DNA from: an uncultured virus (IMG/VR IMGVR_UViG_3300020162_002069)
Lineage: Duplodnaviria > Heunggongvirae > Uroviricota > Caudoviricetes
Length of the DNA: 20,000 nt
Virus record (IMG/VR): IMGVR_UViG_3300020162_002069
Direction: 5' to 3' (one strand)
This document shows, piece after piece, positions 6,001 through 19,234 of the stretch. The translations under genes and the position numbers were made by a program. How positions within the stretch are numbered: the first letter of the stretch is position 1; each line of letters opens with the position of its first letter. The notes beneath the pieces are model-generated. The model was not told the origin of the DNA, did not search any database, and saw only the letters and a program-made list of their open reading frames with translations.

Positions 6001-8576
6001 CCAACTCCCCTTTGTCCTTTAGTATCATAAATTATTCTTTCAGTATTTCGGAATTTATGGTAAGTATTAAATCCAACAGTATTACTTATTAAAGATACTT
6101 GTTCAGAATTAATTTCAGAATTAAAAATTGATTGATGGTCAACTAATTTCATACCAGCATAAGCTTTAGCACCTATACCATTTCCACCGGTTATTCTAAT
6201 TGATGGTATTTCTGCATAATCAAATCCAGAATCAACTATTCTTATTTGACTAAGAGAACCTCTTACTGCACAATATGCCGTGGCGCCAGAACCTACGGGG
6301 TCGCTAATTGATAAAATAGGAGGATTAATTATATCATAATCAATCCCAGGAGCGGTAACTTCTATTTCATTTAATGATCCATAATATACAATATCTCTAG
6401 ATTTGTAATTTAATACTTCAACACCATTAATTAAGATTCCAGTAAATCCAGGTTCTGTTGGATATTCTGCTCCATCATTAATAGGAGAAGAAATTTCCCT
6501 GAAAAGATTTTGTGATTGTAGTGTTTTTGATTTAAACTTATAATATTCAAGTTTATTTGAATTTATTGTTACTGGACTATCAACAGAAACAAATTTTGAA
6601 TAGTAAATATCTGATTTACTCTTAGCAAGTTTAATATTACTTGAATCTATTCTTTTAATAAAATATGTACCCTCATCAAACAACTTACTCAGAATTTGTG
6701 CAGTTTCAATAATAGTACCATCTTCATCAAATGATTCTGATACTATTTTTTCAGGAGTATAGTAAACTAAATCTCCAGTATAAAATCCATGATCTGTAGT
6801 TGAAGTAATTTTAAAAGTGTCTGAATTAAATGTTCCTGAAAAAATTATTTCTCTTGAAGATGCATTTAATGATATATTGTTGTAGTAGGGAAGAGATGTT
6901 GATGCAACTATAGTTTTATCTTTATCTTTGTAAATATTTTGAATGTTTGCATTATTAACAGAAATTTTTGGAAACGTTGAAGAGTTTGGTTTTAAAATAT
7001 TTCTTTTTACTGCATACAAATTGGTAATTAATAATTCACCCTGACCCTTTATGTTAAATGATTTTTCTGAAACAACATCAATTATGGTAGAGTTCTTTTC
7101 TATTCCACTACTATCAATTATTTTTAAACTGTCACCTATTCTAAAAATGTGATTTAACTTTGTATTGACTCTATAAGTATTATCTGTACTATCAATCAAA
7201 GAAATTGATTCAACATTATATGAAGTTGAAATATTAAAAAACCAATTATTAGAAACTACATCTTCTGAATTAACTCCTAAAGTTTTAATTTGTGAGGTAT
7301 AATCCTTTTTAAGATAGTATGTATCATCGATTAAATTAAAATCTTTTATAACTGAAGTAATTCTTACTTTAACGGTATTATCAAAATTTTGTGCGTAAGT
7401 ACTAATACCAATATTTGTAGAATCCTCAATAATTCCTGTGATATTTGAACATCCAAAGAATTGATTTATATTTTTTGACTCATATTTTATAATACCTCTC
7501 GTTGTATCATTATATGTAACGTACAGTTCACCACTATTTGGAAATCCTACAGTTGAATCAACATCAAGAGTCTTAAGTTCATTAATAGAATCTGCATTAT
7601 ACTGCCCAATTACCTTAGTTTGTGGATGAACTTTAAATCCTCCATACAATGCACCATCAAATGTAATATCTTTATTATATCCAGAATCAAAACTAAGTCT
7701 ATAATATTCTTTTGCATCTTTAGAAATTATTTTTTCTACCTTTGTAATTGGCGCATATGCTTTTGAAAAATCTAGATATTCTTCTTGAATTAAAGTGGAA
7801 TTTATTAAATTTTCTGGATTTCCCTCAATACTTTCTACAACCAAATCAGATGTAACTTGGAATTGTGCGTCTGAAGGTCTAAAGAGATATTCTTTAGGTC
7901 TAATAATGCTTGCATCTTCACCATAAAGAACTTTAAATAAAATTTCAAACGATTCATCAGTACCCTTACTTCTATAGAAATCCTTTGACTGCTTAATGAA
8001 TAAAGAATTATTTAAATCCTTAGTTAAAGTTCTATTTTCAAATCCAGGAGTTAATTGATACTTAATTTTGAGTAAAAATTCTTTTAGGAATAAAGAACTC
8101 AAATTAGTAATAGTAGATTCAGCAGAATGATCTGCAGATTCTGATTTAGAAAATACTAATTGGTCTGGTTGATTTTGGGACTTATAAGAACTTATCCCAC
8201 TAAATCCTCTTATACACCCAGTAAAAGAATTAAAAGTTTTTCCAGTATAAGTAATTACTTCGTCATTAATTTTTAACAATCCATATTTTTCAGGAAACCC
8301 ATTTGTTCCTGTTGGCGTTGAAGATACATCTACAAATATAATATTATCAAACGAAGAAATATTTTCAAGTAAAATAGCAGACTCTGCTTGACTAGTTACT
8401 TCATCAACTTTGATATATTTATCAATATTTTGAATTAAATCAATAGGAGATCCTTGAAACTCTTGAGAACGATAGTATTGGGATAAAAATTCTGATACTA
8501 ACGGAAACTCCTCCCTTACATAAGATGGAAGTTGATTGTTAACGATGTTGCTGAACTGAATTCTTTTCTCTAACAT
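1..8576 (-). CDS. gp7: Giant baseplate wedge initiator (gp7-like, cyanomyovirus type), C-terminal end beyond the window, >2850 aa
   Basis: ATG at 8576, 4 nt after the gp6 stop. It reads MLEKRIQFSNIVNNQLPSYVREEFPLVSEFLSQYYRSQEFQG..., and the same frame reads sensibly at 4479-4829 and at the window edge (...YDGAYFIIQVSDNTNNVHQIS). It is absent from the ORF track, presumably because no stop lies in the window. Synteny gp25-gp6-gp7 and the Gly/Ser/Thr-rich motifs are typical of cyanomyovirus structural proteins. Confidence 0.85.
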   Translation of the reverse strand, partial: MLEKRIQFSNIVNNQLPSYVREEFPLVSEFLSQYYRSQEFQGSPIDLIQNIDKYIKVDEVTSQAESAILLENISSFDNIIFVDVSSTPTGTNGFPEKYGLLKINDEVITYTGKTFNSFTGCIRGFSGISSYKSQNQPDQLVFSKSESADHSAESTITNLSSLFLKEFLLKIKYQLTPGFENRTLTKDLNNSLFIKQSKDFYRSKGTDESFEILFKVLYGEDASIIRPKEYLFRPSDAQFQVTSDLVVESIEGNPENLINSTLIQEEYLDFSKAYAPITKVEKIISKDAKEYYRLSFDSGYNKDITFDGALYGGFKVHPQTKVIGQYNADSINELKTLDVDSTVGFPNSGELYVTYNDTTRGIIKYESKNINQFFGCSNITGIIEDSTNIGISTYAQNFDNTVKVRITSVIKDFNLIDDTYYLKKDYTSQIKTLGVNSEDVVSNNWFFNISTSYNVESISLIDSTDNTYRVNTKLNHIFRIGDSLKIIDSSGIEKNSTIIDVVSEKSFNIKGQGELLITNLYAVKRNILKPNSSTFPKISVNNANIQNIYKDKDKTIVASTSLPYYNNISLNASSREIIFSGTFNSDTFKITSTTDHGFYTGDLVYYTPEKIVSESFDEDGTIIETAQILSKLFDEGTYFIKRIDSSNIKLAKSKSDIYYSKFVSVDSPVTINSNKLEYYKFKSKTLQSQNLFREISSPINDGAEYPTEPGFTGILINGVEVLNYKSRDIVYYGSLNEIEVTAPGIDYDIINPPILSISDPVGSGATAYCAVRGSLSQIRIVDSGFDYAEIPSIRITGGNGIGAKAYAGMKLVDHQSIFNSEINSEQVSLISNTVGFNTYHKFRNTERIIYDTKGQRGVGGLSTDSSYFVSVQSSTTVKLHNTLGDAISGINTVNLTSHGIGDHEFRSFNKKSILGSVNIENSGSGYQNKKKTVLSSVAGINTSINQINISNHEFESGEIVKYSTNGSIIGGLTNNTEYYLTKVDNNSFNLSVIGTGSVENNFYYSTKQFINLTSIGSGIQSFNYPEISVEIIGNVGISSIGTTTFKAVVQPIFRGEITSVHLESNGSNYGSSEILNYNRQPLITLNSGSGAKVIPIISNGRIIEVLVNSSGSGYNSPPNLTIDGEGFGAVLTPIIENGQLIKVNVIESGIGYLPSTTAINVITTGLLAEFNTKIQSWNVNLFQKNSTIVSDDDGVLSEGINQNFELEYSYLYAPRKLREIVYASDQAGNILYGRKDLIKSGNKEVLSNNHSPIIGWAYDGNPIYGPYGYSTKQGGIISQMRSGYKLDLKSNRPSVSAFPAGFFIQDYSHFEVSDETVLDKNNGRFCVTPEYPNGAYVYFATISNSAADSSGPFAGYKSPVFPYLIGDNFNSKPNEFNFKAASNQNDLDLNQTNFSRNTNPYNLIENGASYAYLDIPNLLNQTVDIKYATPGSVEKINISSGGSGYKIGDKLVFDNEGTDGSNVSAEVERIFGRSVNSISVATTSISNVEFYPITSQGNFLVFSENPHNFTNSDLIVVSGLNTTSSLIEGSYRIGVTTNTIALTAGIGSTATTGIVTYFSVAGNLNYPNIRENDILGIGTEQIKVLNVDARSSRIRALRAINGTVGSSHSVTDVLYENSRKLIINAGFRSQYDYQINREIYFNPIDAVGLGTTSGIGIGVTLIFSNPGVGITQIFIPTRSIYIPNHQLNTGDELIYSTNNGSVIGVSTNGISTSVSLSNQSIVYVARISDDLIGISTFKVGLGTGGTFVGITSQTSGTGILHFTSVGTGENHSFKTTYNGLIGDISKNTVTVSTAQTHGLLNNDTVFIDVNPSISTTFTFKYNDYNRKLLVNPKDFISAGINTVTNTITIIDHKFESGQKVIHTASIPAIGLENNKEYFIFVVDTNNIRLTNTYYDSINVKPNIVGITSASNGTLSNINPPIQVYKNSSVIFDLSDSSLSYTQQSTLYPAFDLKFFNDSNLTKNYNSNSDDQVFEVQKIGTVGVTSDAKVILSVNENTPENLYYNLIPIYDGNLPENKKLITEDREVLSNNEIQILSSQYNGIYNIIVGSSTSFTYDVAKVPEEDLYISGISSIKYETNSSNTNGSISKIKILNRGQNYYSLPQILSVTSGIGTGEILEPSSTSIGKIKSVKINDIGFDFPSDLTIRPSVSIPQVVKVDPLSSFESIGISSFGRGYTSAPKLIVLDGKTDNIVPEIDLKFTLGNNKIEILKNTFGLNNITPTILPIQNSNGVGISSIQYDSITKNVTVVLSVGFSTANSFPFAVNDKVLIENISVGVTSTGKGFNSENYNYQLFTLTSVTENLGGLGGSVTYNLNEFLIGSESPGTFNPNNSSGRIIAQKQFPIFDIVLRKNDYLIGETVTSESFTGTVEDWDSKLDFIKILSKDNFKVGEIIKGSSSKTQGVTSSIDRFDAFFNLAATSKFINGWKSDAGVLNDNLQRIQDSFYYQNFSYSIKSRVSFDTWNDVVSTLNHTTGFVKFSDYQLESNLSVEDSNSLTINLPSDLTSVEVISDIISVVNLNCVYDFDLVRENSLQIGSQIFSDEIIFSNRILTDYAESIGNRVLSIDDIRSQFNSNPRPTRFSEVHRFNLADVRSQKYITYIRDKRFVGERQLLLVTTLRDDAGNGYLNQYARVENTYDMGSFDFAIDGSEGVLLFYPTKFSVNDFDVTTLSYNINDNLSGIGSTNFGGIVDIKSNSVLVSSGPTTIVSIANTYRSTKILVSILSDNQQYEFDELTVIHDGTNVEFLEYGQLTTHSFDSYSSSGLGTYYPYLSGSELKVDFTPNVGIAVTINTIQVAFGSTTSVGIGTYDMKHARLEGRSTSIASTSTPSPIIISEYPDIYDGAYFIIQVSDNTNNVHQIS

Positions 8577-8580
8577 TTTT

Positions 8581-10509
8581 TTATGATCTTACTAAGTTCC
8601 CGTTTGCGTAGCTTGAAGTTACAATATAGTTTGATGCTGAAGGATCTAGACCCGAAGATATTTCATCCGTCACCATTTCAAATAAACTATTACTAATATC
8701 TAGTTGTAAATATAAATCTTGTAATCCAATAACATCATTGGATTTTGGAATAACTGAAATTTGAATAATTGATTGTTCATCTTTTATTTTTCCAGTAGAA
8801 AATATATTGATTGGATTTAATGTAATAATTCCAGTTTTGTATATAATATTTCCAACATTTCTTTTAACAATTGTTGGTGTTAAAGAATTTGTTGCAGGAA
8901 GAACAAATAAAAATAAAGATCCAGTTTCTCTGTTGGTATTTGGAACATCTGATAAGTATACTTCCTGTTGTACATCAGAAACTCTAAAAGGTGTGGTTTT
9001 AATATTAAACCCATTCATACTTTTAATATGAAATTCATTTCCAAATCCTATCTGATACTCTGCAAAAGTATTTAACACAACTCTTAAATCTCTTCTCATT
9101 TGAATAGTTGTTATATTAGATGTAACCGACTCATGACTATCATCAATAACTTTTAAAAATTTACTATATTTAAATCTTGCTCCATACTTATTCAGTTCCG
9201 TTGATTCTGCATATTTTGTAGTATTGTTTTGTATAATACTTGATACAAAGTCTGAACTTGGTGCAAGATTTGTATTATAATAAATTTTTGAGATTATTTC
9301 AATATAAAGATATTTTAAATCTAAAATCTCAGGAACAATCCCTGCAACAGCATACTTTTTAAGTTTAAGTTTAATATTTTCTTTAATTAAATTTGGTAAA
9401 AAGTCTCCTGATCTTGGTTTAATACTTATAAAGACCTTTCCATACTGTGGCGGAATTAATTCTTCACCACCAAATACAGAAATAGATTCGGTTTCTGGGT
9501 AAATTTTTGCAGGAATTAAAGTTTCATAATCATTTGCAGTAAGAGCTCTATTTTGTGATGCATAAATTCTTGGCGCATATTTCTTAATTGACTCAACCGA
9601 TTCAATATTTTCTCCACCAGATGCAATTAATCCTGTGGTTAATAGAGAAATGCCAGAAGTAATTATATATTCTATAGAATTTCTATTATACGTAATTCTT
9701 CCGGCAAATGTAAATTGACTTATACCATTTGCACTATCACCATTTGAAGTAATATATCCAATTTCTATAAAGTTTCCTTCCTCAAGTTTTTTGCCAAAGA
9801 TTCCATCTCCAAAAATAAGTTCATATCTTTCATCTTCAATCTCCTGTAAGAAGAAAATTTTAGATTCCTTATCAATATCAAAAAGACTATCTTGTCGACT
9901 ATATTTTACTGAGCGTGTAGACTGTTCATTATTTCTTACAATTACTGAAATTAAATCAGTATCAATACCACTATTCGGTAAAATAAATCTTTGATTTGGA
10001 TTATTAGAACTAAAAGTAAAATTGCTTGTTAAACGAGTTCCTTGATAAACTTCAAGATCTTCAAATGTTGCTATACCATTGAAGACTGGAACTGTAATAT
10101 CTTCTAAAATACAGAACACAAAGGACTGATTACCAAAACTACCTGAGGTGCTTGCTACAGGTCCTTTACGGAGGGTTAGAGAGGATGGTGTGGGAGTTAT
10201 ATTCGAAGCATCTATAAAGAAACTTATTGTTGCTCTTGCTGCTTTTCTTGATCTAGGAATGTAACCAATATGTCTAGCAAGTGCTACTACATTTTCTCTC
10301 AGAGTGGCACTATCGATAAAGACTTCATTTGCCACCATATTGGCATTATATGAAGTAATATATGTGTTATATGCTAATACATCAATAATAGTTGACAGAT
10401 TTGATCCTTCAAAATCATAATCTGTAAAGTTTGAATTAGATCTTAAATAATCTTTAAGAGTAATTTTTATCTGATCGAAATCAAGATTTGAAAAGTTTAC
10501 TAGGGGCAT
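8581..10509 (-). CDS. gp6: Baseplate wedge subunit gp6
   Basis: 642 aa. N-terminal LDFDQIK...FTDYDFEGSNLSTIIDVLAYNT...EVFIDSATLRENVV, FGDGIFGK and SQNRALTANDY motifs match T4 gp6; directly follows gp25. Confidence 0.95.
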   Translation of the reverse strand: MPLVNFSNLDFDQIKITLKDYLRSNSNFTDYDFEGSNLSTIIDVLAYNTYITSYNANMVANEVFIDSATLRENVVALARHIGYIPRSRKAARATISFFIDASNITPTPSSLTLRKGPVASTSGSFGNQSFVFCILEDITVPVFNGIATFEDLEVYQGTRLTSNFTFSSNNPNQRFILPNSGIDTDLISVIVRNNEQSTRSVKYSRQDSLFDIDKESKIFFLQEIEDERYELIFGDGIFGKKLEEGNFIEIGYITSNGDSANGISQFTFAGRITYNRNSIEYIITSGISLLTTGLIASGGENIESVESIKKYAPRIYASQNRALTANDYETLIPAKIYPETESISVFGGEELIPPQYGKVFISIKPRSGDFLPNLIKENIKLKLKKYAVAGIVPEILDLKYLYIEIISKIYYNTNLAPSSDFVSSIIQNNTTKYAESTELNKYGARFKYSKFLKVIDDSHESVTSNITTIQMRRDLRVVLNTFAEYQIGFGNEFHIKSMNGFNIKTTPFRVSDVQQEVYLSDVPNTNRETGSLFLFVLPATNSLTPTIVKRNVGNIIYKTGIITLNPINIFSTGKIKDEQSIIQISVIPKSNDVIGLQDLYLQLDISNSLFEMVTDEISSGLDPSASNYIVTSSYANGNLVRS

Positions 10510-12907: not shown

Positions 12908-13384
12908 TTAATCCTCCAATAAATGCTTATAAGTTTTGTTGTTTATGATATAAGAGATTGTAGAACGATGAACATTATACATTTCTCCAAGTTTTAAAGT
13001 TGTATATTTTTTTGAGATATACAACTTTCTAATTTCTCTTACTTGGTTATCAGTAAGTTTTGATCCTCCATTATTTTCTCCTTTTTGATTTCCAGTATAA
13101 CATCTACCTTTTTGAACTTTATCTTTCATATTATCAAGATTTGTTCCGGAAAATAAATGTAAAGGATTTACACATTTTCTATTATCGCACTTATGAAGGC
13201 AATGAAGATTTTCTAATGGTTCGGCGTAGTATACTTCATACATTAATCTATGAGATTTTACAGTTTTTCCTTTATATGAAAAATTTCCATACCCATAGGC
13301 ATCAATTGTTCCTTTCCATTCCCAACAACAATTTTCGTTAAGAATATCTGGCAGTTTATTATAAAATTTTTCTAATAGAGACAT
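12908..13384 (-). CDS. Free-standing HNH homing endonuclease with C-terminal HTH
   Basis: CWEWKG..GYG..HRLMY..LHKCDNRKCVNPLHL..GTNLDN HNH motif, followed by GENNGGSKLT..VREIR..LGEMYNVHRSTISYI helix-turn-helix. Confidence 0.92.
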   Translation of the reverse strand: MSLLEKFYNKLPDILNENCCWEWKGTIDAYGYGNFSYKGKTVKSHRLMYEVYYAEPLENLHCLHKCDNRKCVNPLHLFSGTNLDNMKDKVQKGRCYTGNQKGENNGGSKLTDNQVREIRKLYISKKYTTLKLGEMYNVHRSTISYIINNKTYKHLLED

Positions 13385-13969: not shown

Positions 13970-13998
13970 AGTCTAACATAAGTGCCCTCCGGAGTCAA
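13970..13998 (-). promoter_or_regulatory. sigma70-type promoter with its -35 in a hairpin loop
   Basis: TTGACT-17 nt-TAGACT with an extended TG. Confidence 0.6.
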
Positions 13999-14008
13999 CC
14001 AGAGGGCA
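13982..14008 (-). terminator. GC-rich stem-loop closing the early cassette region
   Basis: GTGCCCTCTGG-TTGACT-CCGGAGGGCAC followed by TTATGTT, just after the stop of the 44-aa ORF. Confidence 0.6.
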
Positions 14009-14023
14009 CACAGAGAGTTATAT

Positions 14024-14158
14024 TCAGACCTCGAAGACCTCCGCGCAACTGTTAATACCTTCCTGCTCAATATCAGAAACAAGTGTATTCAGGATAGTCA
14101 AGATTTCATCACCGTTGTTACCTTGTGCAAGGAGACTAAGTGCAACTGAGAGAGTCAT
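14024..14158 (-). CDS. Small hypothetical protein (44 aa, MTLSVALSLLAQGNNGDEILTILNTL...)
   Basis: Manually translated; lies between a structured leader and the terminator hairpin. Confidence 0.7.
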   Translation of the reverse strand: MTLSVALSLLAQGNNGDEILTILNTLVSDIEQEGINSCAEVFEV

Positions 14159-14236: not shown

Positions 14237-14482
14237 TTACTCTGCACCTTCGAAGATGTACTTATCCATCAAACTTTCGATTGGACTAGATGAGCAAAGG
14301 TTGACGAATTGAGTAACAGCAAGAGTAATATCCTGCTGATTAACTTCCATATCAATGTCGTCGCATTCATAACTCACAAAGTCCTGATAATACTTCGAGC
14401 GCATACCAATCCGCACAAGATCACGGAGCATACTCATCTCTTCATCGTTGAGTTTGATGGTATACTTAGTGGAGGTTTTCAT
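14237..14482 (-). CDS. Hypothetical protein (81 aa)
   Basis: ORF track; second gene of the cassette behind repeat copy 1. Confidence 0.7.
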   Translation of the reverse strand: MKTSTKYTIKLNDEEMSMLRDLVRIGMRSKYYQDFVSYECDDIDMEVNQQDITLAVTQFVNLCSSSPIESLMDKYIFEGAE

Positions 14483-14522: not shown

Positions 14523-14714
14523 TTAATAAGACTTTGTTACGTTGTTGATGTAATTCAGTCCCCAGGAGTAAGCATCATCAGGGCGCTTTAATGTCTGCTG
14601 GACAGAATACTTGTGACCTTCATCAGTTGCTCTCTGATAGACCCACACATTCCACCTTCCAGACTTACTTTGTTCTACGAAGAATGGACGGGTTTCAGTG
14701 TTAGGGAAGATCAT
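14523..14714 (-). CDS. Hypothetical protein (63 aa), likely paralog of 18131-18355
   Basis: First ORF after repeat copy 1; shares the PF.V..G.NVWVY motif. Confidence 0.75.
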   Translation of the reverse strand: MIFPNTETRPFFVEQSKSGRWNVWVYQRATDEGHKYSVQQTLKRPDDAYSWGLNYINNVTKSY

Positions 14715-14740
14715 AAGATTTGAGGTTGGTTGGTCTCTAC

Positions 14741-14775
14741 ACTATAGAAACACTTTGGACGATCCTAACTTTAAT
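14741..14775 (-). repeat. Cassette/promoter repeat copy 1
   Basis: + strand ACTATAGAAACACTTTGGACGATCCTAACTTTAAT; TATAGT -10 on the minus strand. Confidence 0.95.
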
Positions 14776-14811
14776 ACGTAAGAGATTGTAACTTACGTGT
14801 AACTTAATAAA

Positions 14812-15000
14812 TCAAACTTGGGTTACAAAGTTAGTGCCACTGGAACGGTTAGTTCTACAACGATTTCCCTTAGTTTGTGATAGAGTTAGATCTGACTTAC
14901 GGGGTTTTGCTGATGCTAACCGTGTGACCTTTATCTTACCCTGGACTTCAGCAATTGCGAGATCCAGTGTAGACAACGAAGCAAACTCAGAGACTGTCAT
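14812..15000 (-). CDS. Hypothetical basic protein (~62 aa; ATG at 15000 preferred over GTG at 15006)
   Basis: Single-gene cassette between repeat copies 2 and 1. Confidence 0.7.
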   Translation of the reverse strand: MTVSEFASLSTLDLAIAEVQGKIKVTRLASAKPRKSDLTLSQTKGNRCRTNRSSGTNFVTQV

Positions 15001-15033
15001 GATCACAAATAAGTGGGGTTGATTGGTCCCTAC

Positions 15034-15068
15034 ACTATAGAGACACTTTGGACGATCCTAACTTTAAT
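15034..15068 (-). repeat. Cassette/promoter repeat copy 2
   Basis: ACTATAGAGACACTTTGGACGATCCTAACTTTAAT. Confidence 0.95.
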
Positions 15069-15071
15069 ACC

Positions 15072-15326
15072 TTAGAAATCGAACACGTCAGAGTTAATCT
15101 GAACCACGTTAACTTTGGGGTCGGCAAACTTAACTCCGTCCTTTGTTTCATTCACTCCATACTCATTGTAGAGACAATCTACAAAGGTTTCATAATCACC
15201 ACACCCCATAGCAAGGTGATACAGACCCTCCTCATTGTTGATCCAGAGAGCTACATTCCAGGTCTCATAGTTCTCCCAACCGTTATAGGAGATATCAAGA
15301 GCATTGCGTTGGTAGGAAGTAGTCAT
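15072..15326 (-). CDS. Phage hypothetical protein (84 aa, YNGWENYETWNVALW motif)
   Basis: Single-gene cassette between repeat copies 3 and 2; stop 3 nt from the repeat; motif recalled from cyanophage small ORFs. Confidence 0.85.
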   Translation of the reverse strand: MTTSYQRNALDISYNGWENYETWNVALWINNEEGLYHLAMGCGDYETFVDCLYNEYGVNETKDGVKFADPKVNVVQINSDVFDF

Positions 15327-15358
15327 TTAGAAGAAAGTTGGTTTTGATTGGTCTCTAC

Positions 15359-15393
15359 ACTATAGAGACACTTTGGACGATCCTAACTTTAAT
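15359..15393 (-). repeat. Cassette/promoter repeat copy 3
   Basis: ACTATAGAGACACTTTGGACGATCCTAACTTTAAT. Confidence 0.95.
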
Positions 15394-15433
15394 ACGTAAG
15401 AGATTGTAGATTATGAGTATAAATCCAGACAGC

Positions 15434-15467
15434 AAAAAATCTCCAAAAAGTACACTGCTTTTTTGGA
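15434..15467 (-). terminator. Putative terminator
   Basis: TCCAAAAAAGCA-GTG-TACTTTTTGGA hairpin followed by GATTTTTT on the minus strand. Confidence 0.5.
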
Positions 15468-15570
15468 TACTTAAGTTCTTGGATATACCTTAACCTGATA
15501 ACCTATTTCACATCGATGCGGCAAATTGGGAACACTAGCATTAAACCCTGTACGCCTGTATAATATAAAC

Positions 15571-15737
15571 GAATCAACTCATAAGATAGTAACAATTATT
15601 GACGGAATGTAGCAGGGAATTCTAATGATCCAAAGCGAAAGACTTATCTCACCAGGTTAACTGTCTGTTGTGCTTTCTAGGTATAGAATTGTGCTGAATG
15701 TTCTGTCGTTTAATGTTAGTCTCTTATGAGGTTATTT
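15571..15737 (+). ncRNA. Candidate rod-like structured ncRNA (~160 nt)
   Basis: Nested complementary segments over 15578-15730 with no ORF. G-U pairs favour the + strand. TATAAT at 15559-15564 lies just upstream. Confidence 0.55.
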
Positions 15738-15740
15738 ATA
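15733..15740 (-). promoter_or_regulatory. T4 late promoter TATAAATA
   Basis: Perfect consensus pointing into the non-coding hairpin region. Confidence 0.6.
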
Positions 15741-15755
15741 CACTTAAGAACGCAA

Positions 15756-15929
15756 TTACCATCTATCAGGTACACTGAGTGACTCAACATAGGCTGACAC
15801 CTTCTCTGCGGGTTCGAGGTCAAAGATCTTCTCCCAGTCCAAATTGTGCGGGTCAAAGTCACTGAGGACCTCTAATTCAATAGTCACACGATACTTTTGC
15901 TTCTGTGCTTGATGATATGCAACGGACAT
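15756..15929 (-). CDS. Small hypothetical protein (57 aa, MSVAYHQAQKQKYRVTIELEVLSDFDPHNLDWEKIFDLEPAEKVSAYVESLSVPDRW)
   Basis: Manually translated; AGGAG SD and its own consensus promoter. Confidence 0.85.
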   Translation of the reverse strand: MSVAYHQAQKQKYRVTIELEVLSDFDPHNLDWEKIFDLEPAEKVSAYVESLSVPDRW

Positions 15930-15957
15930 AAGAGTGCTCCTGATGTGTTATAAGGGT

Positions 15958-15986
15958 ACTATAAGATACCTGAGAGTGAATGTCAA
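15958..15986 (-). promoter_or_regulatory. sigma70-type promoter, with a tandem late box CATAAATA at 15999-16006
   Basis: TTGACA-17 nt-TATAGT upstream of the 57-aa ORF. Confidence 0.85.
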
Positions 15987-16059
15987 GCACCTTGGGGGTA
16001 TTTATGTGCCTCTGTGGACTTTTGTGAGGGATCTGTGGGGATTTTGTGACCTTGGGGGG

Positions 16060-16088
16060 TTGACAATTTGCGTTCCTTAGTGTATGCT
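16060..16088 (+). promoter_or_regulatory. Divergent sigma70-type promoter firing into the DnaA-box cluster
   Basis: TTGACA-17 nt-TATGCT with no credible ORF downstream. Confidence 0.65.
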
Positions 16089-16188
16089 TGCTAAGATAAC
16101 AAGACTCTGAGGGGTTTATAAGGTACAGAGACAATAACCTCCCCACATTATAGTCACACAGAGACAATAATACTCCATAGATTATAGG

Positions 16189-16229
16189 TTTTCCACAGAT
16201 TAACATAGGTTTTCCACAGGTTTTCCACA
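16189..16229 (+). repeat. Three DnaA-box matches TTTTCCACA
   Basis: Exact copies at 16189-16197, 16210-16218 and 16221-16229, each inside AGGTTTTCCACAG. Confidence 0.8.
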
Positions 16230-16314
16230 GAGAGATAATAAAGTACTTTATATTCTTTAATACATTTTTAATTGATTTTAATGTATTTTTAACCTTATTT
16301 TGATTAAAAAGCAT

Positions 16315-16344
16315 AAAAAAGCAGAAGGAACCACCCCTCTGCTT
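16315..16344 (-). terminator. Rho-independent terminator
   Basis: AGCAGAGGGG-TGGT-TCCTTCTGCT stem with a T-run, ending the cassette transcribed from repeat copy 4. Confidence 0.8.
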
Positions 16345-16437
16345 ATAATCACCTATACCAACCTTAAGTCAATTATCTATACTCTACGATGTAACTTTGT
16401 TGTATAGCAGAGGCCAACATCTTCCTCTTCTTGATTA

Positions 16438-16575
16438 TTATACCATATAAGACTTTGATCCACAAGAGAGATAAAACCTTACCATACTTTCTGCTTCTTG
16501 AAGTGTATTAAAGAATTGTGATCTCCATTCCTGATTGTTATAAGGAGTTTGGAATCGGACTTCGTAACGTATCAT
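16438..16575 (-). CDS. Small hypothetical protein (45 aa, MIRYEVRFQTPYNNQEWRSQFF...FYLSCGSKSYMV)
   Basis: Manually translated; tight packing with an A/C-rich leader. Confidence 0.75.
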   Translation of the reverse strand: MIRYEVRFQTPYNNQEWRSQFFNTLQEAESMVRFYLSCGSKSYMV

Positions 16576-16584
16576 TTTGTTTGA

Positions 16585-16722
16585 TTAGTGAGTAAGTTCA
16601 GTAACAATCTTTTCACGAAGAGGTCCTATATCAAAACCCCACACTTCTTTCACCTCATCATAATCATCATGAAAATCAATCAGTGTAAGTAAGTTTTGAA
16701 GATCAGTTTCGTTAAGTGTCAT
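16585..16722 (-). CDS. Small acidic protein (45 aa, MTLNETDLQNLLTLIDFHDD...)
   Basis: Manually translated; tight packing. Confidence 0.7.
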   Translation of the reverse strand: MTLNETDLQNLLTLIDFHDDYDEVKEVWGFDIGPLREKIVTELTH

Positions 16723-16729
16723 TTTGTGT

Positions 16730-16882
16730 TTAGTATTGTGGTGAGATGAGTGATGCAGTAGACCTTAATACTTCAGCAGTTGTATACCTTACTGATGGGA
16801 AGACTATAAAACTAATGACAAAGATAAGTGCAATAAGTTTCATCTTTGAGGGTGATTTGAGTGTTAGTTTTTTAGTTCTCAT
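16730..16882 (-). CDS. Small membrane/secreted peptide (50 aa, MRTKKLTLKSPSKMKLIALIFVISFIVFPSVR...)
   Basis: Manually translated; one hydrophobic segment; starts 2 nt after the upstream stop. Confidence 0.7.
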   Translation of the reverse strand: MRTKKLTLKSPSKMKLIALIFVISFIVFPSVRYTTAEVLRSTASLISPQY

Positions 16883-16884
16883 TC

Positions 16885-17199
16885 TCAGTTAAGACGCATA
16901 CCTGAGAAGAAAGGAATAGCACCTCCAACTTGATTCACAAACCAGTTAAAGTTCTTTTGAAATACACTTTCACCAGGAAGTCCGTGCTCTTTCAGAATAG
17001 CATTTAGACGGGACTTAGTGGTTGCTGATTGATAACCACCATCAAACAGTTGAATAAAGTTTTCTCCAATAGTTGCGATTTGATTACCATGAAGAAACAC
17101 ACGGGAGATGTTACCTTCTGTAAGAACTTGAGTATTAGCATTGCTCCAATTCTTTTGATTGGAGATTGCATCATTCATTTGGATTTCGATTTTTCTCAT
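16885..17199 (-). CDS. Cyanophage-type hypothetical protein (104 aa)
   Basis: MRKIE..M, LHGNQIA and GGYQSATTKSRLNA motifs; first gene after repeat copy 4. Confidence 0.85.
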   Translation of the reverse strand: MRKIEIQMNDAISNQKNWSNANTQVLTEGNISRVFLHGNQIATIGENFIQLFDGGYQSATTKSRLNAILKEHGLPGESVFQKNFNWFVNQVGGAIPFFSGMRLN

Positions 17200-17226
17200 T
17201 TTGGTTTGGTTTGGATTGGTGCTTAC

Positions 17227-17261
17227 ACTATAGAGACACTTTGGACGATCCTAACTTTAAT
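17227..17261 (-). repeat. Cassette/promoter repeat copy 4
   Basis: ACTATAGAGACACTTTGGACGATCCTAACTTTAAT. Confidence 0.95.
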
Positions 17262-17262
17262 A

Positions 17263-17424
17263 TCACCAATATTGTCGGTCATACTTTACATCTTCCCATC
17301 CATCACGTTGATATGCTTTGCGCTCATAATCTTCTGCTGTTAGATTATCATCATGTTCGTGATCCTCATAATAAGCATCAGACTTTGAGTAAGAGTTGCC
17401 TTTGTAGAAAGAAGTTGTGATCAT
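17263..17424 (-). CDS. Small acidic/Tyr-rich protein (53 aa, MITTSFYKGNSYSKSDAYYEDHEHDD...DRQYW)
   Basis: Manually translated; stop 1 nt from repeat copy 4. Confidence 0.7.
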   Translation of the reverse strand: MITTSFYKGNSYSKSDAYYEDHEHDDNLTAEDYERKAYQRDGWEDVKYDRQYW

Positions 17425-17429
17425 TTTGT

Positions 17430-17594
17430 TTAAGAGACTTTTACGAAACGAGTATCAATCCAAACACCTTTATCAGTGCCGATTGTGAATGAATGATCCC
17501 ATACAAAATGAGTTGCTTGTTGTCGTGAGAGAGGAAAGTTTGTAGTGAGAAAATCTACTGCTTCAAAGAGATTAGTGAACCTTTGTGTAGTCAT
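17430..17594 (-). CDS. Small hypothetical protein (54 aa, MTTQRFTNLFEAVDFL...)
   Basis: Manually translated; tight packing. Confidence 0.7.
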   Translation of the reverse strand: MTTQRFTNLFEAVDFLTTNFPLSRQQATHFVWDHSFTIGTDKGVWIDTRFVKVS

Positions 17595-17605
17595 TTGCTG
17601 TTTAC

Positions 17606-17830
17606 TCAGTTTAGGATAGAGAATGAACCGCAGAAGTTACGAACCCAGTTAAGAGTGTCATAGTGACTGCGTGGGTTAGACATTACCATACTCACATTCT
17701 TTTCGGGATTGTAAGCAATAGCAACGTATTTGTGATCACATTCTTGATACTCAGGAGTGATTTGTTGAATCCACATTTGATTCACTTTACCTTCTTTCCA
17801 GTTGGTAGAGTAGGAGAAGACTTGATCCAT
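17606..17830 (-). CDS. Hypothetical protein (74 aa, start MDQVF)
   Basis: The track start at 17845 abuts the -10 box and would lie upstream of the predicted TSS; the ATG at 17830 follows an A/C-rich leader like the other cassettes. Confidence 0.75.
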   Translation of the reverse strand: MDQVFSYSTNWKEGKVNQMWIQQITPEYQECDHKYVAIAYNPEKNVSMVMSNPRSHYDTLNWVRNFCGSFSILN

Positions 17831-17845
17831 TTGGGTGTTGCTCAT

Positions 17846-17880
17846 ACTATAGGGACACTTTGGACGATCCTAACTTTAAT
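17846..17880 (-). repeat. Cassette/promoter repeat copy 5
   Basis: ACTATAGGGACACTTTGGACGATCCTAACTTTAAT. Confidence 0.95.
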
Positions 17881-17890
17881 CACTTGAAAC

Positions 17891-18073
17891 TTACATTCCA
17901 TTGATAAAGTCAGCAACTGCATCATCATACTCTTCTTTAGTCTCAAATATGCGTCCATGAATGATACGGGGATAGGTTACGTTTGTTTCACCTACCGCAG
18001 CAACATTGCGGCAGTCTTGTTCATTGTATCCCATCTCGATTAGGGTATTCACATAAGGGTTGTAATGAGTCAT
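17891..18073 (-). CDS. Hypothetical protein (60 aa)
   Basis: ORF track; last gene of the cassette from repeat copy 6. Confidence 0.8.
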   Translation of the reverse strand: MTHYNPYVNTLIEMGYNEQDCRNVAAVGETNVTYPRIIHGRIFETKEEYDDAVADFINGM

Positions 18074-18130
18074 TTTTGTATTAGGATTAGGATTAGAGTT
18101 GGTTTGTTTGGTGTGCTTTAGTTTATAGGT

Positions 18131-18355
18131 TCAGGTGGCACAGTGATCGTAGGAGTGGTTTTCGATATAATGCCACGCTACAGCAGTTGCATCCTCCCGT
18201 GAGTGATACTTGCCGTGGGTTGTTAACATTTTGTAGTGGTGACGGATGACACCATCAGGGTGAGTTTCACTGCTAGTTTTATATACCCAAACGTTATAAC
18301 CCTTGGTGCCTTTGTTAACTTTGAAGGGAGCGTGGTTGTTGCCTTTGATGATCAT
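18131..18355 (-). CDS. Hypothetical protein (74 aa), likely paralog of 14523-14714
   Basis: ORF track; A/C-rich leader; NVWVY motif. Confidence 0.75.
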   Translation of the reverse strand: MIIKGNNHAPFKVNKGTKGYNVWVYKTSSETHPDGVIRHHYKMLTTHGKYHSREDATAVAWHYIENHSYDHCAT

Positions 18356-18396
18356 CTTGGTTTGTTTGGTGTAATTAGGAGAAGAAAGTGTGCGTA

Positions 18397-18603
18397 TCAG
18401 ACCTTCATTTTTGCAAGATCTTTCATACAGGAAGGCATCATCTCCTGAACGTACTCATAGAAGTAAGAGTTGTTCATTGATGCAAGTTGTTGACGTTCTG
18501 CTTCCTCACTTCCATCAACAAACTCCGACTCGGTATCAATCAGGCAGTCAATATACCAGTCGATGAGTATTTGTCGTTGTGCTTTGGTGAGAAAAGTAGT
18601 CAT
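18397..18603 (-). CDS. Hypothetical acidic protein (68 aa)
   Basis: First gene after repeat copy 6. Confidence 0.75.
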   Translation of the reverse strand: MTTFLTKAQRQILIDWYIDCLIDTESEFVDGSEEAERQQLASMNNSYFYEYVQEMMPSCMKDLAKMKV

Positions 18604-18629
18604 TTAGAGTTGGTTTGATTGGTCTCTAC

Positions 18630-18664
18630 ACTATAAGGACACTTTGGACGATCCTAACTTTAAT
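18630..18664 (-). repeat. Cassette/promoter repeat copy 6
   Basis: ACTATAAGGACACTTTGGACGATCCTAACTTTAAT; identical to copy 7 over 53 bp (18610-18662 vs 19180-19232). Confidence 0.95.
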
Positions 18665-18807
18665 TACTTGAAACTTACATTCACTCCGATTACTTTTGCA
18701 GTAGGATTTCGATTTTGTGCAGTATAACGTGCATCTTGTGGGTTGTTTGCTTGTACTTCTTCTTTGAAGACTTTACCACCAACGTATAAATCAACAATAT
18801 ACTTCAT
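18664..18807 (-). CDS. Cyanophage-type small protein (47 aa, MKYIVDLYVGGKVFKEEV...RNPTAKVIGVNVSFK)
   Basis: The ATG at 18807, 1 nt after the upstream stop, is preferred over the overlapping track start at 18849; the stop touches repeat copy 6. Confidence 0.8.
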   Translation of the reverse strand: MKYIVDLYVGGKVFKEEVQANNPQDARYTAQNRNPTAKVIGVNVSFK

Positions 18808-18808
18808 T

Positions 18809-19009
18809 TTAGTTACCTTCTGCAATTTGATTGAGAATGTTACGGGCAAAAGTCATAAAGGTATAAGGAGTTACACCATTGTGCTCATAGAAGTCTAACA
18901 TATCAGTTTGATTGTAAGTGTTCACAATCAACAGACAAGCACCATATAGTGCTGCTTGATGTTCCCCTTTAGAAGTGAATGAAATTGCATTGTGAGTTGG
19001 AAGTACCAT
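18809..19009 (-). CDS. Hypothetical protein (66 aa)
   Basis: ORF track; tight packing. Confidence 0.75.
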   Translation of the reverse strand: MVLPTHNAISFTSKGEHQAALYGACLLIVNTYNQTDMLDFYEHNGVTPYTFMTFARNILNQIAEGN

Positions 19010-19011
19010 AA

Positions 19012-19179
19012 TCAGTAGTTAGAAACAGTGGTGTAGATTGTACCAGTGTGGTTATAGTGAATGTTCACGTCACACTGATAATCTTCGGACAATGAATAGG
19101 CAAGGTCGATTGCACTATCAAGGTCGGTAGTAGTGTTCTCCCAAGGTGCTTGTCCGCAACGGACATCATATCTGGTCAT
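19012..19179 (-). CDS. Small hypothetical protein (55 aa, MTRYDVRCGQAPWENTTTDLDSAIDLAYSLSEDY...)
   Basis: Manually translated; first gene after repeat copy 7. Confidence 0.8.
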   Translation of the reverse strand: MTRYDVRCGQAPWENTTTDLDSAIDLAYSLSEDYQCDVNIHYNHTGTIYTTVSNY

Positions 19180-19199
19180 TTGGTTTGATTGGTCTCTAC

Positions 19200-19234
19200 A
19201 CTATAAGGACACTTTGGACGATCCTAACTTTATT
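19200..19234 (-). repeat. Cassette/promoter repeat copy 7
   Basis: ACTATAAGGACACTTTGGACGATCCTAACTTTATT. Confidence 0.95.

What the first reader, a model, noticed from the sequence alone, without database searches (positions are those of the whole stretch)
14741..19234. Integron-like array of micro-gene cassettes delimited by seven copies of a 35-bp promoter/recombination repeat
Seen: an invariant 24-bp core ACACTTTGGACGATCCTAACTTTA occurs 7 times in one orientation (35-bp units start at 14741, 15034, 15359, 17227, 17846, 18630, 19200; spacings 293, 325, 1868, 619, 784, 570 bp). Each copy is followed on the minus strand by a short leader and 1-4 tiny ORFs. In four cases the previous gene's stop lies within 3 nt of, or inside, the repeat (15072, 17263, 18664, 19233). 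Known: the PeSL elements of T4-type phage RB49 are repeated early-promoter cassettes that shuffle ORFans by recombination and form mini-circles. Inference: this is a cyanophage analogue, with each repeat acting as both promoter and crossover site for gain, loss and reordering of host-takeover or anti-defence peptides. No integrase is present in the window.
Basis: partly seen in the sequence, partly recalled or inferred. Interest (0 to 1): 0.85.

Follow-up and report, generated by a model that had tools for sequence, protein, structure and literature searches.

The report
Repeated promoter-like signal in lake cyanophage
Seven identical copies of a short DNA signal sit in front of groups of small genes in a virus of lake cyanobacteria; they most likely switch those genes on and only now and then serve as seams where gene blocks are lost or swapped, a cyanophage version of something already known from T4-type phages.

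Summary
The 24-mer occurs 7 times exactly, on one strand, at the stated spacings, and 12 times in the 31.6-kb contig.

The contig is a freshwater T4-like cyanophage (Kyanoviridae layout: helicase, small genes, gp25-gp6-giant gp7). The repeat is about 45 bp and always sits directly upstream of a gene group:
- stop codons;
- a 24-nt core;
- five variable bases;
- a -10-like TATAGT/TAGTAT;
- a conserved A;
- then a short C/A-rich leader or an embedded ATG.

The exact core is in 21 other viral contigs (120 copies, all in gene orientation). Cultured cyanophages (SynMITS9220M01, S-SM2) carry sister elements. They share the 3' half but have a private 17-nt 5' box, and they are confined to the same region.

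Best reading: a lineage-specific promoter lacking a -35, possibly read through its box by an unknown factor.

Recombination at the repeats is real. One clean hybrid repeat deletes an 871-nt cassette, and 3 of 23 events run repeat to repeat. But breakpoints are not enriched at repeats (an end at a repeat in 11 of 23 events, 11.7 expected).

There is no integrase, attC structure or stem-loop. This is PeSL-like, not integron-like. This scan noted the same kind of element before on other DNA (e1-5402425, e1-6054196).

The parts
19190..19234 (-). Repeat copy 7 (core 19209-19232). It heads ORFs 19012-19179 (55 aa), 18809-19009 (66 aa) and 18664-18807 (47 aa, phrog_685). Subtype with a C/A-rich leader.
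18620..18664 (-). Repeat copy 6 (core 18639-18662). It heads ORFs 18397-18603 (68 aa), 18131-18355 (74 aa) and 17891-18073 (60 aa, phrog_649).
17836..17880 (-). Repeat copy 5 (core 17855-17878). An ATG inside the repeat (17843-17845) opens the 79-aa ORF 17606-17845. ORFs 17430-17594 and 17263-17424 follow.
17217..17261 (-). Repeat copy 4 (core 17236-17259). It heads Kyano_Gp96 (16885-17199) and three ORFs of 45-50 aa. The unit ends at a terminator-like hairpin at 16319-16344.
15349..15393 (-). Repeat copy 3 (core 15368-15391). It heads the DUF7249 gene 15072-15326.
15024..15068 (-). Repeat copy 2 (core 15043-15066). It heads the 62-aa ORF 14812-15000.
14731..14775 (-). Repeat copy 1 (core 14750-14773). 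It heads ORFs 14523-14714, 14237-14482 and 14024-14158. A hairpin lies at 13982-14009.
18099..18113 (-). 15-nt leader repeat CACCAAACAAACCAA, first of two exact copies flanking the 74-aa gene.
   Evidence: a contig of run X7 lacks 18089-18356
18357..18371 (-). Second copy of the 15-nt leader repeat.
15958..15986 (-). The only near-consensus sigma-70 promoter of the region (TTGACA-17-TATAGT, 11 of 12), before the 57-aa ORF 15756-15929. It is listed here as a contrast class to the repeats.

Best explanation
Each repeat is the promoter cassette of one transcription unit (1-5 genes) in the small-gene region between the helicase and the baseplate genes of a freshwater T4-like cyanophage.

Read in gene direction, with position 1 as the first base of the core, the cassette holds:
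- stop codons for the upstream gene;
- a core, TAAAGTTAGGATCGTCCAAAGTGT (1-24);
- five free bases (25-29);
- a -10 hexamer, TATAGT (28-33) or TAGTAT (30-35);
- a conserved A at position 40, the likely start of the RNA;
- then a short, G-poor C/A-rich leader without a Shine-Dalgarno sequence.

There is no -35 hexamer. Its place (about -40 to -25) is taken by the part of the core that is private to this phage lineage. I infer that this box is read sequence-specifically by a host or phage protein, as the MotA box is in T4 middle promoters.

Because all copies are direct repeats of about 45 bp, the phage's homologous recombination sometimes crosses over between them. That deletes, inserts or swaps the genes in between. 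This is a by-product, not a dedicated site-specific system.

Shown: the anatomy, its conservation, the sister elements and the recombinants. Inferred: promoter activity, the start site and a box-binding factor.
For: Position and orientation:
- 120 of 120 copies (up to 6 mismatches) in the contig and 21 related contigs lie in gene orientation, directly upstream of a gene.
- None lies in the structural half of the window.
- Units start with conserved genes as well as ORFans.

A -10 element:
- Positions 30, 31, 33 and 35 read T, A, T, T in 93-99% of copies, and A40 in 92%.
- Divergent copies keep a good TAnnnT there (TATTAT, TAGAAT) while other parts change.
- The region's one canonical promoter also uses TATAGT.

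Constraint on the core:
- In 250 orthologous pairs the core stays 95-98% identical whatever the divergence of the gene behind it.
- Positions 25-29 fall to 52-74% in pairs whose downstream gene is under 90% identical.
- Positions 25-29 are more alike within a genome (0.80) than at the same site in other genomes (0.68). One contig has 13 of 13 ACCTA.

Sister elements with a private box:
- SynMITS9220M01 has 9 copies, all on one strand, within 38.9-50.0 kb of its 190 kb. S-SM2 has 5.
- The shared 3' half occurs in 116 stretches of viral contigs, with 78 distinct box-plus-core sequences.

Variable distance to the start codon (14-47 nt past position 34) fits a promoter better than a translation signal.

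Recombination:
- The single repeat of contig c15 joins the left flank of one repeat of c04 to the right flank of the next, removing 871 nt.
- 3 of 23 indel or replacement events run repeat to repeat.
Against: - There is no expression or 5'-end data. All runs found are assembled contigs that break at the repeats.
- A generic sigma-70 scan calls none of the 7 copies, because no -35 is present.
- In 52 of 91 distinct copies an ATG sits at positions 34-36, upstream of the predicted start. It opens the downstream ORF in 50 of 52, and 14 of 52 have no other ATG within about 75 nt. Those genes would need read-through transcripts or a start site further upstream.
- Other TAnnnT hexamers exist in the core (TAGGAT at 7-12, CAAAGT at 17-22), so the start site is not settled.
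- Breakpoints are not enriched at repeats. Against 30% of 390 gene junctions carrying a repeat: left ends 10 of 23 (6.9 expected, P=0.12), right ends 4 of 23 (6.9 expected), any end 11 of 23 (11.7 expected).
- No box-binding protein was identified.
Confidence: 0.65

Rival explanations
1. The element works in RNA, not DNA. It would be a processing, stabilising or ribosome-loading signal inside long read-through early transcripts. Cleavage or ribosome entry just before the embedded ATG would give each gene group its own message.
For: - The ATG at positions 34-36 is the start codon in 50 of 52 copies that have it, so RNA must cover the element there.
- Stops in all three frames lie inside the element (read).
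- In a subset of sister lineages the box pairs with the shared GTCCC into a hairpin followed by the A/U-rich UAUAGUAU (z -3 to -5).
Against: - In the window's lineage the element has no structure beyond shuffles (mean z 0.02).
- Across the family, the share with a stem of 5 or more pairs is 0.55 against 0.48 +/- 0.06 after shuffling the box.
- The distance to the start codon varies from 0 to 47 nt.
- Rfam gives no match.
- Divergent copies keep a TAnnnT hexamer, a DNA-level feature.
Confidence: 0.13
2. An integron-like system: the repeats are sites of a site-specific recombinase that captures, excises and reorders promoterless micro-gene cassettes.
For: - Direct repeats bound small-gene units.
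- Some units are present or absent as a whole between relatives: the [repeat F62 F63] unit, and the F20-F16 cassette of c04 against c15.
Against: - No integrase among 43 ORFs of the 31.6-kb contig.
- No palindromic attC-like structure.
- Each unit carries its own -10-like signal.
- The crossover in the c15 hybrid lies inside a run of identical bases, as in homologous exchange.
- 12 of 23 events have no end at a repeat.
- A 15-nt leader repeat supports a deletion just as well.
- The sister elements of a complete 190-kb genome sit in one 11-kb region, upstream of conserved genes.
Confidence: 0.03
3. The core is an operator. A phage or host repressor binds the imperfect palindrome (centre at position 13) to shut the early units off together. 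The promoter itself would be only the -10 region.
For: - The arms AAAGTTAGGA and TCCAAAGTGT match in 7 of 10 positions as an inverted repeat (read).
- The core is far more constrained than a -35 needs.
- Boxes are private to each lineage, as with repressor-operator pairs.
Against: - 7 of 10 is weak once all possible centres are considered (my estimate, no formal test).
- The boxes of sister lineages are not palindromic in the same register.
- No candidate repressor was found.
- This reading still needs the element to be a promoter, so it refines the best explanation more than it rivals it.
Confidence: 0.12

Closest known systems
PeSLs (promoter-early stem-loops) of T4-type phages RB49/phi1, T4/PST and KVP40/nt-1 (Arbiol 2010, PMC2839356, passages read; Comeau 2014, PMC4122927, parts 1-2 of 3 read)
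   Same: - Repeated composite regulatory cassettes in one orientation, between small genes of a hyperplastic region of a T4-like genome.
- They end at the start codon.
- Close relatives differ by gene indels and replacements next to them.
- Exchange between two copies removes what lies between.
   Different: - No -35 hexamer.
- No stem-loop upstream of or in the element in this lineage.
- No Shine-Dalgarno sequence.
- A 24-nt near-invariant core whose 5' part is private to the lineage.
- Breakpoints are not enriched at the repeats here.
- Mini-circles were not tested.
- Puxty 2015 (PMC4503421, passages read) found no dense PeSLs in cyanophage S-PM2.
T4 middle promoters (MotA box at -30 plus a -10, with sigma appropriation by MotA/AsiA); their geometry is recalled from general knowledge, and the proteins are described in PMC5780444 (passages read)
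   Same: A -10 TAnnnT without a -35. A conserved box replaces the -35, with about 10-12 bp between the box and the -10 (inferred).
   Different: - The box sequence is unrelated and differs between cyanophage lineages.
- Cyanomyoviruses are reported to lack motA and asiA (PMC2984593, passages read).
- No activator is known.
- Dependence on phage protein synthesis is untested.
Unannotated sister elements of cultured Kyanoviridae: SynMITS9220M01 (MT408532), S-SM2 (GU071095), S-B05 (MK799832)
   Same: - The 3' half AAAG(T/C)GTCCCTATAGT(A/G)T(G/A)AGCA.
- The same embedded ATG, with a second in-frame ATG 15-18 nt on.
- The same genome region and orientation.
   Different: - The 17-nt 5' box differs: TAATGTTACTCACCTCT in SynMITS9220M01 and GCAAAGGGGGGTCGCCT in S-SM2.
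- The records show only CDS features there.
- I found no paper that prints these motifs.
Integron attC/cassette arrays
   Same: Short repeats bound small gene units in one orientation.
   Different: - No integrase and no attC palindrome.
- The units carry their own promoter-like signal.
- Exchange looks homologous.

Membership tests
PeSL (promoter-early stem-loop cassette) | Repeated intergenic cassette in the hyperplastic small-gene region of a T4-type genome, in gene orientation | tested here: met
   The layout is Kyanoviridae. 12 of 12 copies in the contig and 120 of 120 in 22 contigs lie in gene orientation upstream of genes.
PeSL (promoter-early stem-loop cassette) | Sigma-70-type promoter with both a -35 and a -10 hexamer about 17 nt apart | tested here: not met
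   A -10-like TATAGT/TAGTAT is present. The consensus scan of 7 copies because no -35 reaches 4 of 6.
PeSL (promoter-early stem-loop cassette) | Stem-loop (terminator) just upstream of the promoter | tested here: not met
   Folding z-scores of the 12 copies: 50 nt upstream, mean -0.18; the element itself, mean 0.02. Some sister lineages have a hairpin overlapping the box.
PeSL (promoter-early stem-loop cassette) | Shine-Dalgarno sequence and start codon at the 3' end | tested here: inconclusive
   The start codon is embedded or lies 14-47 nt on. The leaders are C/A-rich, with no GGAG-type sequence (read).
PeSL (promoter-early stem-loop cassette) | Indels and replacements between close relatives occur at the cassettes | tested here: inconclusive
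   They do occur: 3 repeat-to-repeat events and one hybrid repeat. They are no more frequent than at other gene junctions: any end 11 of 23 against 11.7 expected.
PeSL (promoter-early stem-loop cassette) | Mini-circles formed by exchange between neighbouring cassettes | not testable with these tools
   Only assembled contigs of the runs were available, and they break at the repeats.
Integron | Tyrosine-recombinase integrase (IntI) beside the array | tested here: not met
   Pfam on 43 ORFs of the 31.6-kb contig found no integrase. The contig is only about 15% of a genome.
Integron | attC sites: imperfect palindromes that fold as single strands | tested here: not met
   No structure beyond shuffles.
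Integron | Promoterless cassettes read from one common promoter | tested here: not met
   Every repeat carries its own -10-like hexamer and a conserved A40.
T4-type middle promoter (activator box in place of the -35) | A -10 TAnnnT, no -35, and a conserved box centred near -30 | tested here: inconclusive
   The geometry fits if the RNA starts at position 40-42. The start site is not measured.
T4-type middle promoter (activator box in place of the -35) | MotA/AsiA-type activator and co-activator encoded by the phage | not tested
   Only 31.6 kb of the genome is held, and no such Pfam hit appears in it. A review states that cyanomyoviruses lack motA and asiA (PMC2984593).
Kyanoviridae shared-core/private-box element (unnamed; also noted by this scan as e1-5402425) | Shared 3' half, lineage-private 5' box, many same-strand copies confined to the helicase-to-gp25 region | tested here: met

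The most novel reading that the evidence does not exclude
The private 17-nt box is the recognition site of an as yet unknown, fast-evolving phage-encoded transcription factor. This would be a functional analogue of T4 MotA in a family said to lack MotA/AsiA.

Under this reading:
- A few consensus sigma-70 promoters (such as the one at 15958-15986) fire first.
- The repeat-type promoters form a second, phage-dependent wave.
- Box and factor co-diversify between cyanophage lineages, as T7-type polymerase-promoter pairs do. That keeps each lineage's early programme private during co-infection.
Probability: 0.25. Interest if true: 0.8.

Novelty: new variant of a known kind. Interest (0 to 1): 0.5.

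Why it matters
How T4-like cyanophages time their early and middle genes is an open question. They lack the T4 proteins that retarget the host polymerase (PMC2984593).

A dense family of promoter-like cassettes gives a concrete handle on that question:
- The half near the -10 is conserved across many Kyanoviridae.
- The upstream box is private to each lineage yet tightly constrained within it.
- The family can be tested in cultured phages that carry sister elements (SynMITS9220M01, S-SM2).

The finding also tempers the PeSL idea for cyanophages. The repeats do recombine, but in this sample gene turnover is no more frequent at them than at other gene junctions.

Tried and rejected
- **Chimeric assembly (40% against 28% G+C).** Rejected as far as tested. 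Independent contigs c08, c13, c02 and c14 run across the composition change to window ~11270. SynMITS9220M01 shows the same trend.
- **Rfam scan of the window at E<=1.** No match.
- **T7-type promoter on the opposite strand.** The reverse complement reads ACTATAGGGA, and the paper-search hits were T7 primers. Rejected: conservation lies on the wrong side of that would-be start, it points against the genes, and T4-like phages have no such polymerase.
- **N4-type hairpin promoter.** No stable hairpin in this lineage.
- **-10 at CAAAGT (17-22) with a start at position 29.** This would put every start codon inside the RNA. Disfavoured: position 22 is C in 6 of 120 copies and in 3 of 5 S-SM2 copies, while those copies keep a good hexamer at 28-35.
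- **-10 at TAGGAT (7-12).** Not kept in sister lineages.
- **Host-site mimicry.** The 20-mer GTTAGGATCGTCCAAAGTGT is absent from 185,579 prokaryote genomes. An exact match is a harsh test.
- **Link to the HNH endonuclease at 12908-13384.** Rejected: relatives without the gene keep the repeats.
- **Sequencing runs.** 20 of 24 listed runs hold part of the stretch (12 studies, lake and freshwater). All are kept as assembled contigs. Laid on the window, DNA and RNA contigs alike stop at the repeats, so they give no transcript starts, circles or strand. An RNA-library run (X15) covers the region but does not show transcription.
- **The joint 18092->17828 ('goes back', sides 24-36 nt).** It reads as a variant gene order, not a circle junction.
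- **PDB sequence search of DUF6267 and DUF7717.** Nothing.
- **Doron et al. 2016 (Syn9 transcriptome).** Not held. What I say of it is recalled.
- **Papers describing such a cyanophage motif.** Searches found none.

Full report
**Observation.** The 24-mer ACACTTTGGACGATCCTAACTTTA occurs seven times with no mismatch, all on the + strand, at 14750, 15043, 15368, 17236, 17855, 18639 and 19209. No looser copy appears with up to three mismatches, and none in 200 shuffles. The genes run on the minus strand. The window is the reverse strand of bases 9066-29065 of a 31,647-base viral contig rated about 15% complete. That contig holds 12 copies, 9 exact and 3 with one mismatch, all in one orientation.

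**What the DNA is.**
- The small genes match Synechococcus myoviruses only (124 phage records).
- Pfam finds gp25 and gp6 baseplate proteins and Kyano_Gp96 in the window. Upstream in the contig it finds two helicases, two DNA methylases, DUF6267 and DUF7717.
- The order is helicase, small genes, gp25, gp6, then a giant ORF (3,718 aa called). Synechococcus phage SynMITS9220M01, family Kyanoviridae, has the same order.
- Runs that hold the stretch are labelled lake or freshwater metagenomes.
- Independent contigs run across the fall in G+C from 40% to about 30%. It is not an assembly join as far as window ~11270.

**Anatomy.** I number the element in gene direction, with position 1 as the first base of the core. 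Over 120 copies, conservation runs from two bases before the core to about position 43:
- AT;
- the core TAAAGTTAGGATCGTCCAAAGTGT;
- five variable bases (25-29);
- T30 A31 G32 T33 R34 T35;
- RAGC;
- A40 (92%).

This gives TATAGT at 28-33 or TAGTAT at 30-35, both of TAnnnT form. Three of the 12 upstream genes use the TAA at positions 1-3 as their stop. Most of the others end within 12 nt.

There are two subtypes:
- ...TATAGTGTAGAGACCAATCAAACCAA-ATG, with a C/A-rich leader and no Shine-Dalgarno sequence.
- ...TATAGTATGAGCA..., in which an ATG lies at 34-36.

Of 91 distinct copies, 52 have that ATG. It opens the downstream ORF in 50 of 52. A second in-frame ATG follows exactly 15 nt later in 25 of 52, and 14 of 52 have no other ATG nearby.

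**Relatives.**
- The exact core occurs in 21 other IMG/VR contigs. With up to six mismatches I count 120 copies, all forward.
- No cultured phage has this core.
- SynMITS9220M01, S-SM2 and S-B05 carry sister elements. They share the 3' half AAAG(T/C)GTCCCTATAGT(A/G)T(G/A)AGCA but have other 17-nt 5' boxes.
- In the complete 190-kb SynMITS9220M01 genome the nine copies all lie on one strand within 38.9-50.0 kb, the helicase-to-gp25 region.
- The shared half, searched as a pattern, occurs in 116 stretches of viral contigs, with 78 distinct box-plus-core sequences.
- This scan noted the same shared-half, private-half design before on other DNA (e1-5402425, e1-6054196). I reached it independently, before that look-up.

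**Constraint.** In 250 pairs of copies that stand before the same gene family in different contigs:
- the core stays 95-98% identical whether the gene behind it is 31% or 99% identical (ungapped);
- positions 25-29 fall to 52-74% in the pairs whose downstream gene is under 90% identical.

Positions 25-29 are more alike among different sites of one genome (0.80, n=402) than at the same site in other genomes (0.68, n=250). One contig has ACCTA in 13 of 13 copies. So the copies of a genome are homogenised, by gene conversion or by common selection. On top of that, the core is held by sequence-specific selection. Since the 5' part of the core differs completely in sister lineages, I infer a recognition partner that differs between lineages. 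It could be a host or a phage protein. The 20-mer of the box is absent from 185,579 prokaryote genomes.

**Promoter or not.**

For:
- Strict position and orientation.
- Restriction to the non-structural region.
- The TAnnnT hexamer and the conserved A40.
- Divergent copies keep a good hexamer (TATTAT, TAGAAT) at the same place.
- The distance to the start codon varies.

Against:
- A generic sigma-70 scan calls none of the seven copies, for want of a -35.
- The embedded ATG lies upstream of the predicted start.

The same scan finds one near-consensus promoter at 15986-15958 (TTGACA-17-TATAGT). It stands before a 57-aa gene that is 66% identical to a SynMITS9220M01 gene. In that phage the same spot carries two perfect 12-of-12 divergent promoters. 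These phages therefore have a few textbook promoters and many box-type ones. That fits two promoter classes but does not prove them.

I weighed two other hexamers:
- CAAAGT at 17-22 would put all start codons in the RNA. But it loses its last T in 6 of 120 copies and in 3 of 5 S-SM2 copies.
- TAGGAT at 7-12 is not kept in sister lineages.

The fixed second ATG 9 nt after A40, kept in frame with the first, is what one expects if element-started RNAs use the second ATG and read-through RNAs use the first. The 14 copies with only the first ATG remain unexplained.

**Recombination.** A gene-order map of the 22 contigs shows a conserved backbone with many small-gene gains, losses and swaps.

Among contig pairs at least 88% identical I listed 32 gaps. 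By eye I merged those seen twice in near-identical contigs and was left with 23 events:
- the left end lies in a repeat in 10;
- the right end in 4;
- both ends in 3;
- neither end in 12.

Of 390 gene junctions, 117 (30%) carry a repeat. The expected numbers are therefore 6.9, 6.9 and 2.1, and 11.7 for any end against 11 seen. None departs significantly. The events are not fully independent.

The clearest case is contig c15. Its single repeat has the left flank of one c04 repeat and the right flank of the next, with the exchange inside the identical bases. It removes 871 nt carrying four genes (alignment A1). Contig c18 carries repeats whose first eight bases belong to another box type, in front of a cassette 95% identical to the window's.

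Other short repeats do the same work. A contig of run X7 lacks 18089-18356, the 74-aa gene between two exact copies of CACCAAACAAACCAA.

So the repeats are substrates of homologous exchange, but not special hot spots in this sample.

**Comparison with known systems.**
- PeSLs are the closest published kind (PMC2839356, passages; PMC4122927, parts 1-2). The -35 and the stem-loop were tested here and are not met. I therefore file this as working like a PeSL, not as a member.
- Integron features fail: there is no integrase, no attC fold, and each unit has its own promoter-like signal.
- The geometry of a -10 plus an upstream box resembles T4 middle promoters (recalled). A review says cyanomyoviruses lack motA and asiA (PMC2984593, passages).
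- Puxty et al. found no dense PeSLs in S-PM2 (PMC4503421, passages).
- I found no paper describing this element. Doron et al. 2016, which may bear on it, is not held, and its supplements could not be seen.

**Verdict.** The element is most likely the lineage-specific promoter cassette of the small-gene region of a freshwater T4-like cyanophage (confidence 0.65), with occasional recombination between copies. It is not integron-like. It is a new variant of a known kind, and interest is moderate.

The boldest reading left open is a phage-encoded factor that binds the box and defines a second transcription wave (probability about 0.25).

Noticed in passing
window 15958-16344: A non-coding hub. It holds a terminator-like hairpin (16319-16344), an A/T-rich stretch with three copies of an 18-nt iteron-like repeat, further repeats of 13 and 16 nt (16125-16292), and divergent sigma-70-like promoters (15986-15958 on the minus strand, 16060-16088 on the plus strand). 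SynMITS9220M01 has a terminator and two perfect divergent promoters at the same place. This is a candidate replication origin of the promoter/R-loop kind, or a regulatory hub.
   Followed up: partly
window 12908-13384 (-): A 158-aa HNH_3 endonuclease gene lies in a ~500-bp insertion. Contigs c08, c13, c02 and c14 lack it and have 20-27 nt there. Contig c10 (99.9% identical) has it. It looks like a homing endonuclease.
   Followed up: partly
contig G000: early genes against gp6/gp7 (window 3-10509): Third-codon G+C is 0.38 in the helicase and DUF6267 genes but 0.13-0.15 in gp6 and the giant gp7-like gene. SynMITS9220M01 shows a milder drop in G+C at the same boundary.
   Followed up: partly
window 15738-15755 and 16068-16085: 18-nt inverted repeats (89% complementary) bracket the 57-aa gene together with its consensus promoter.
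   Followed up: no
window 15392-15755: About 360 nt without a convincing ORF, between the 57-aa gene and the next repeat. It has long imperfect inverted repeats (36-nt arms) and a hairpin followed by a T run. Rfam gives no match.
   Followed up: no
window 18099-18113 and 18357-18371: Two exact 15-nt C/A-rich leader repeats flank the 74-aa gene. A metagenome contig (run X7) lacks the stretch between them. C/A-rich leaders without a Shine-Dalgarno sequence are general in this region.
   Followed up: partly
   Followed up: no
L047 (contig 1-9100): Genes headed by repeats include a helicase of the ResIII/DEAD type and an Eco57I-like DNA methylase. The stretch also holds a second such helicase (at the contig start) and an N6_N4 methylase, neither headed by a repeat. 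In relative c08 a different 333-aa gene replaces the N6_N4 methylase.
   Followed up: no
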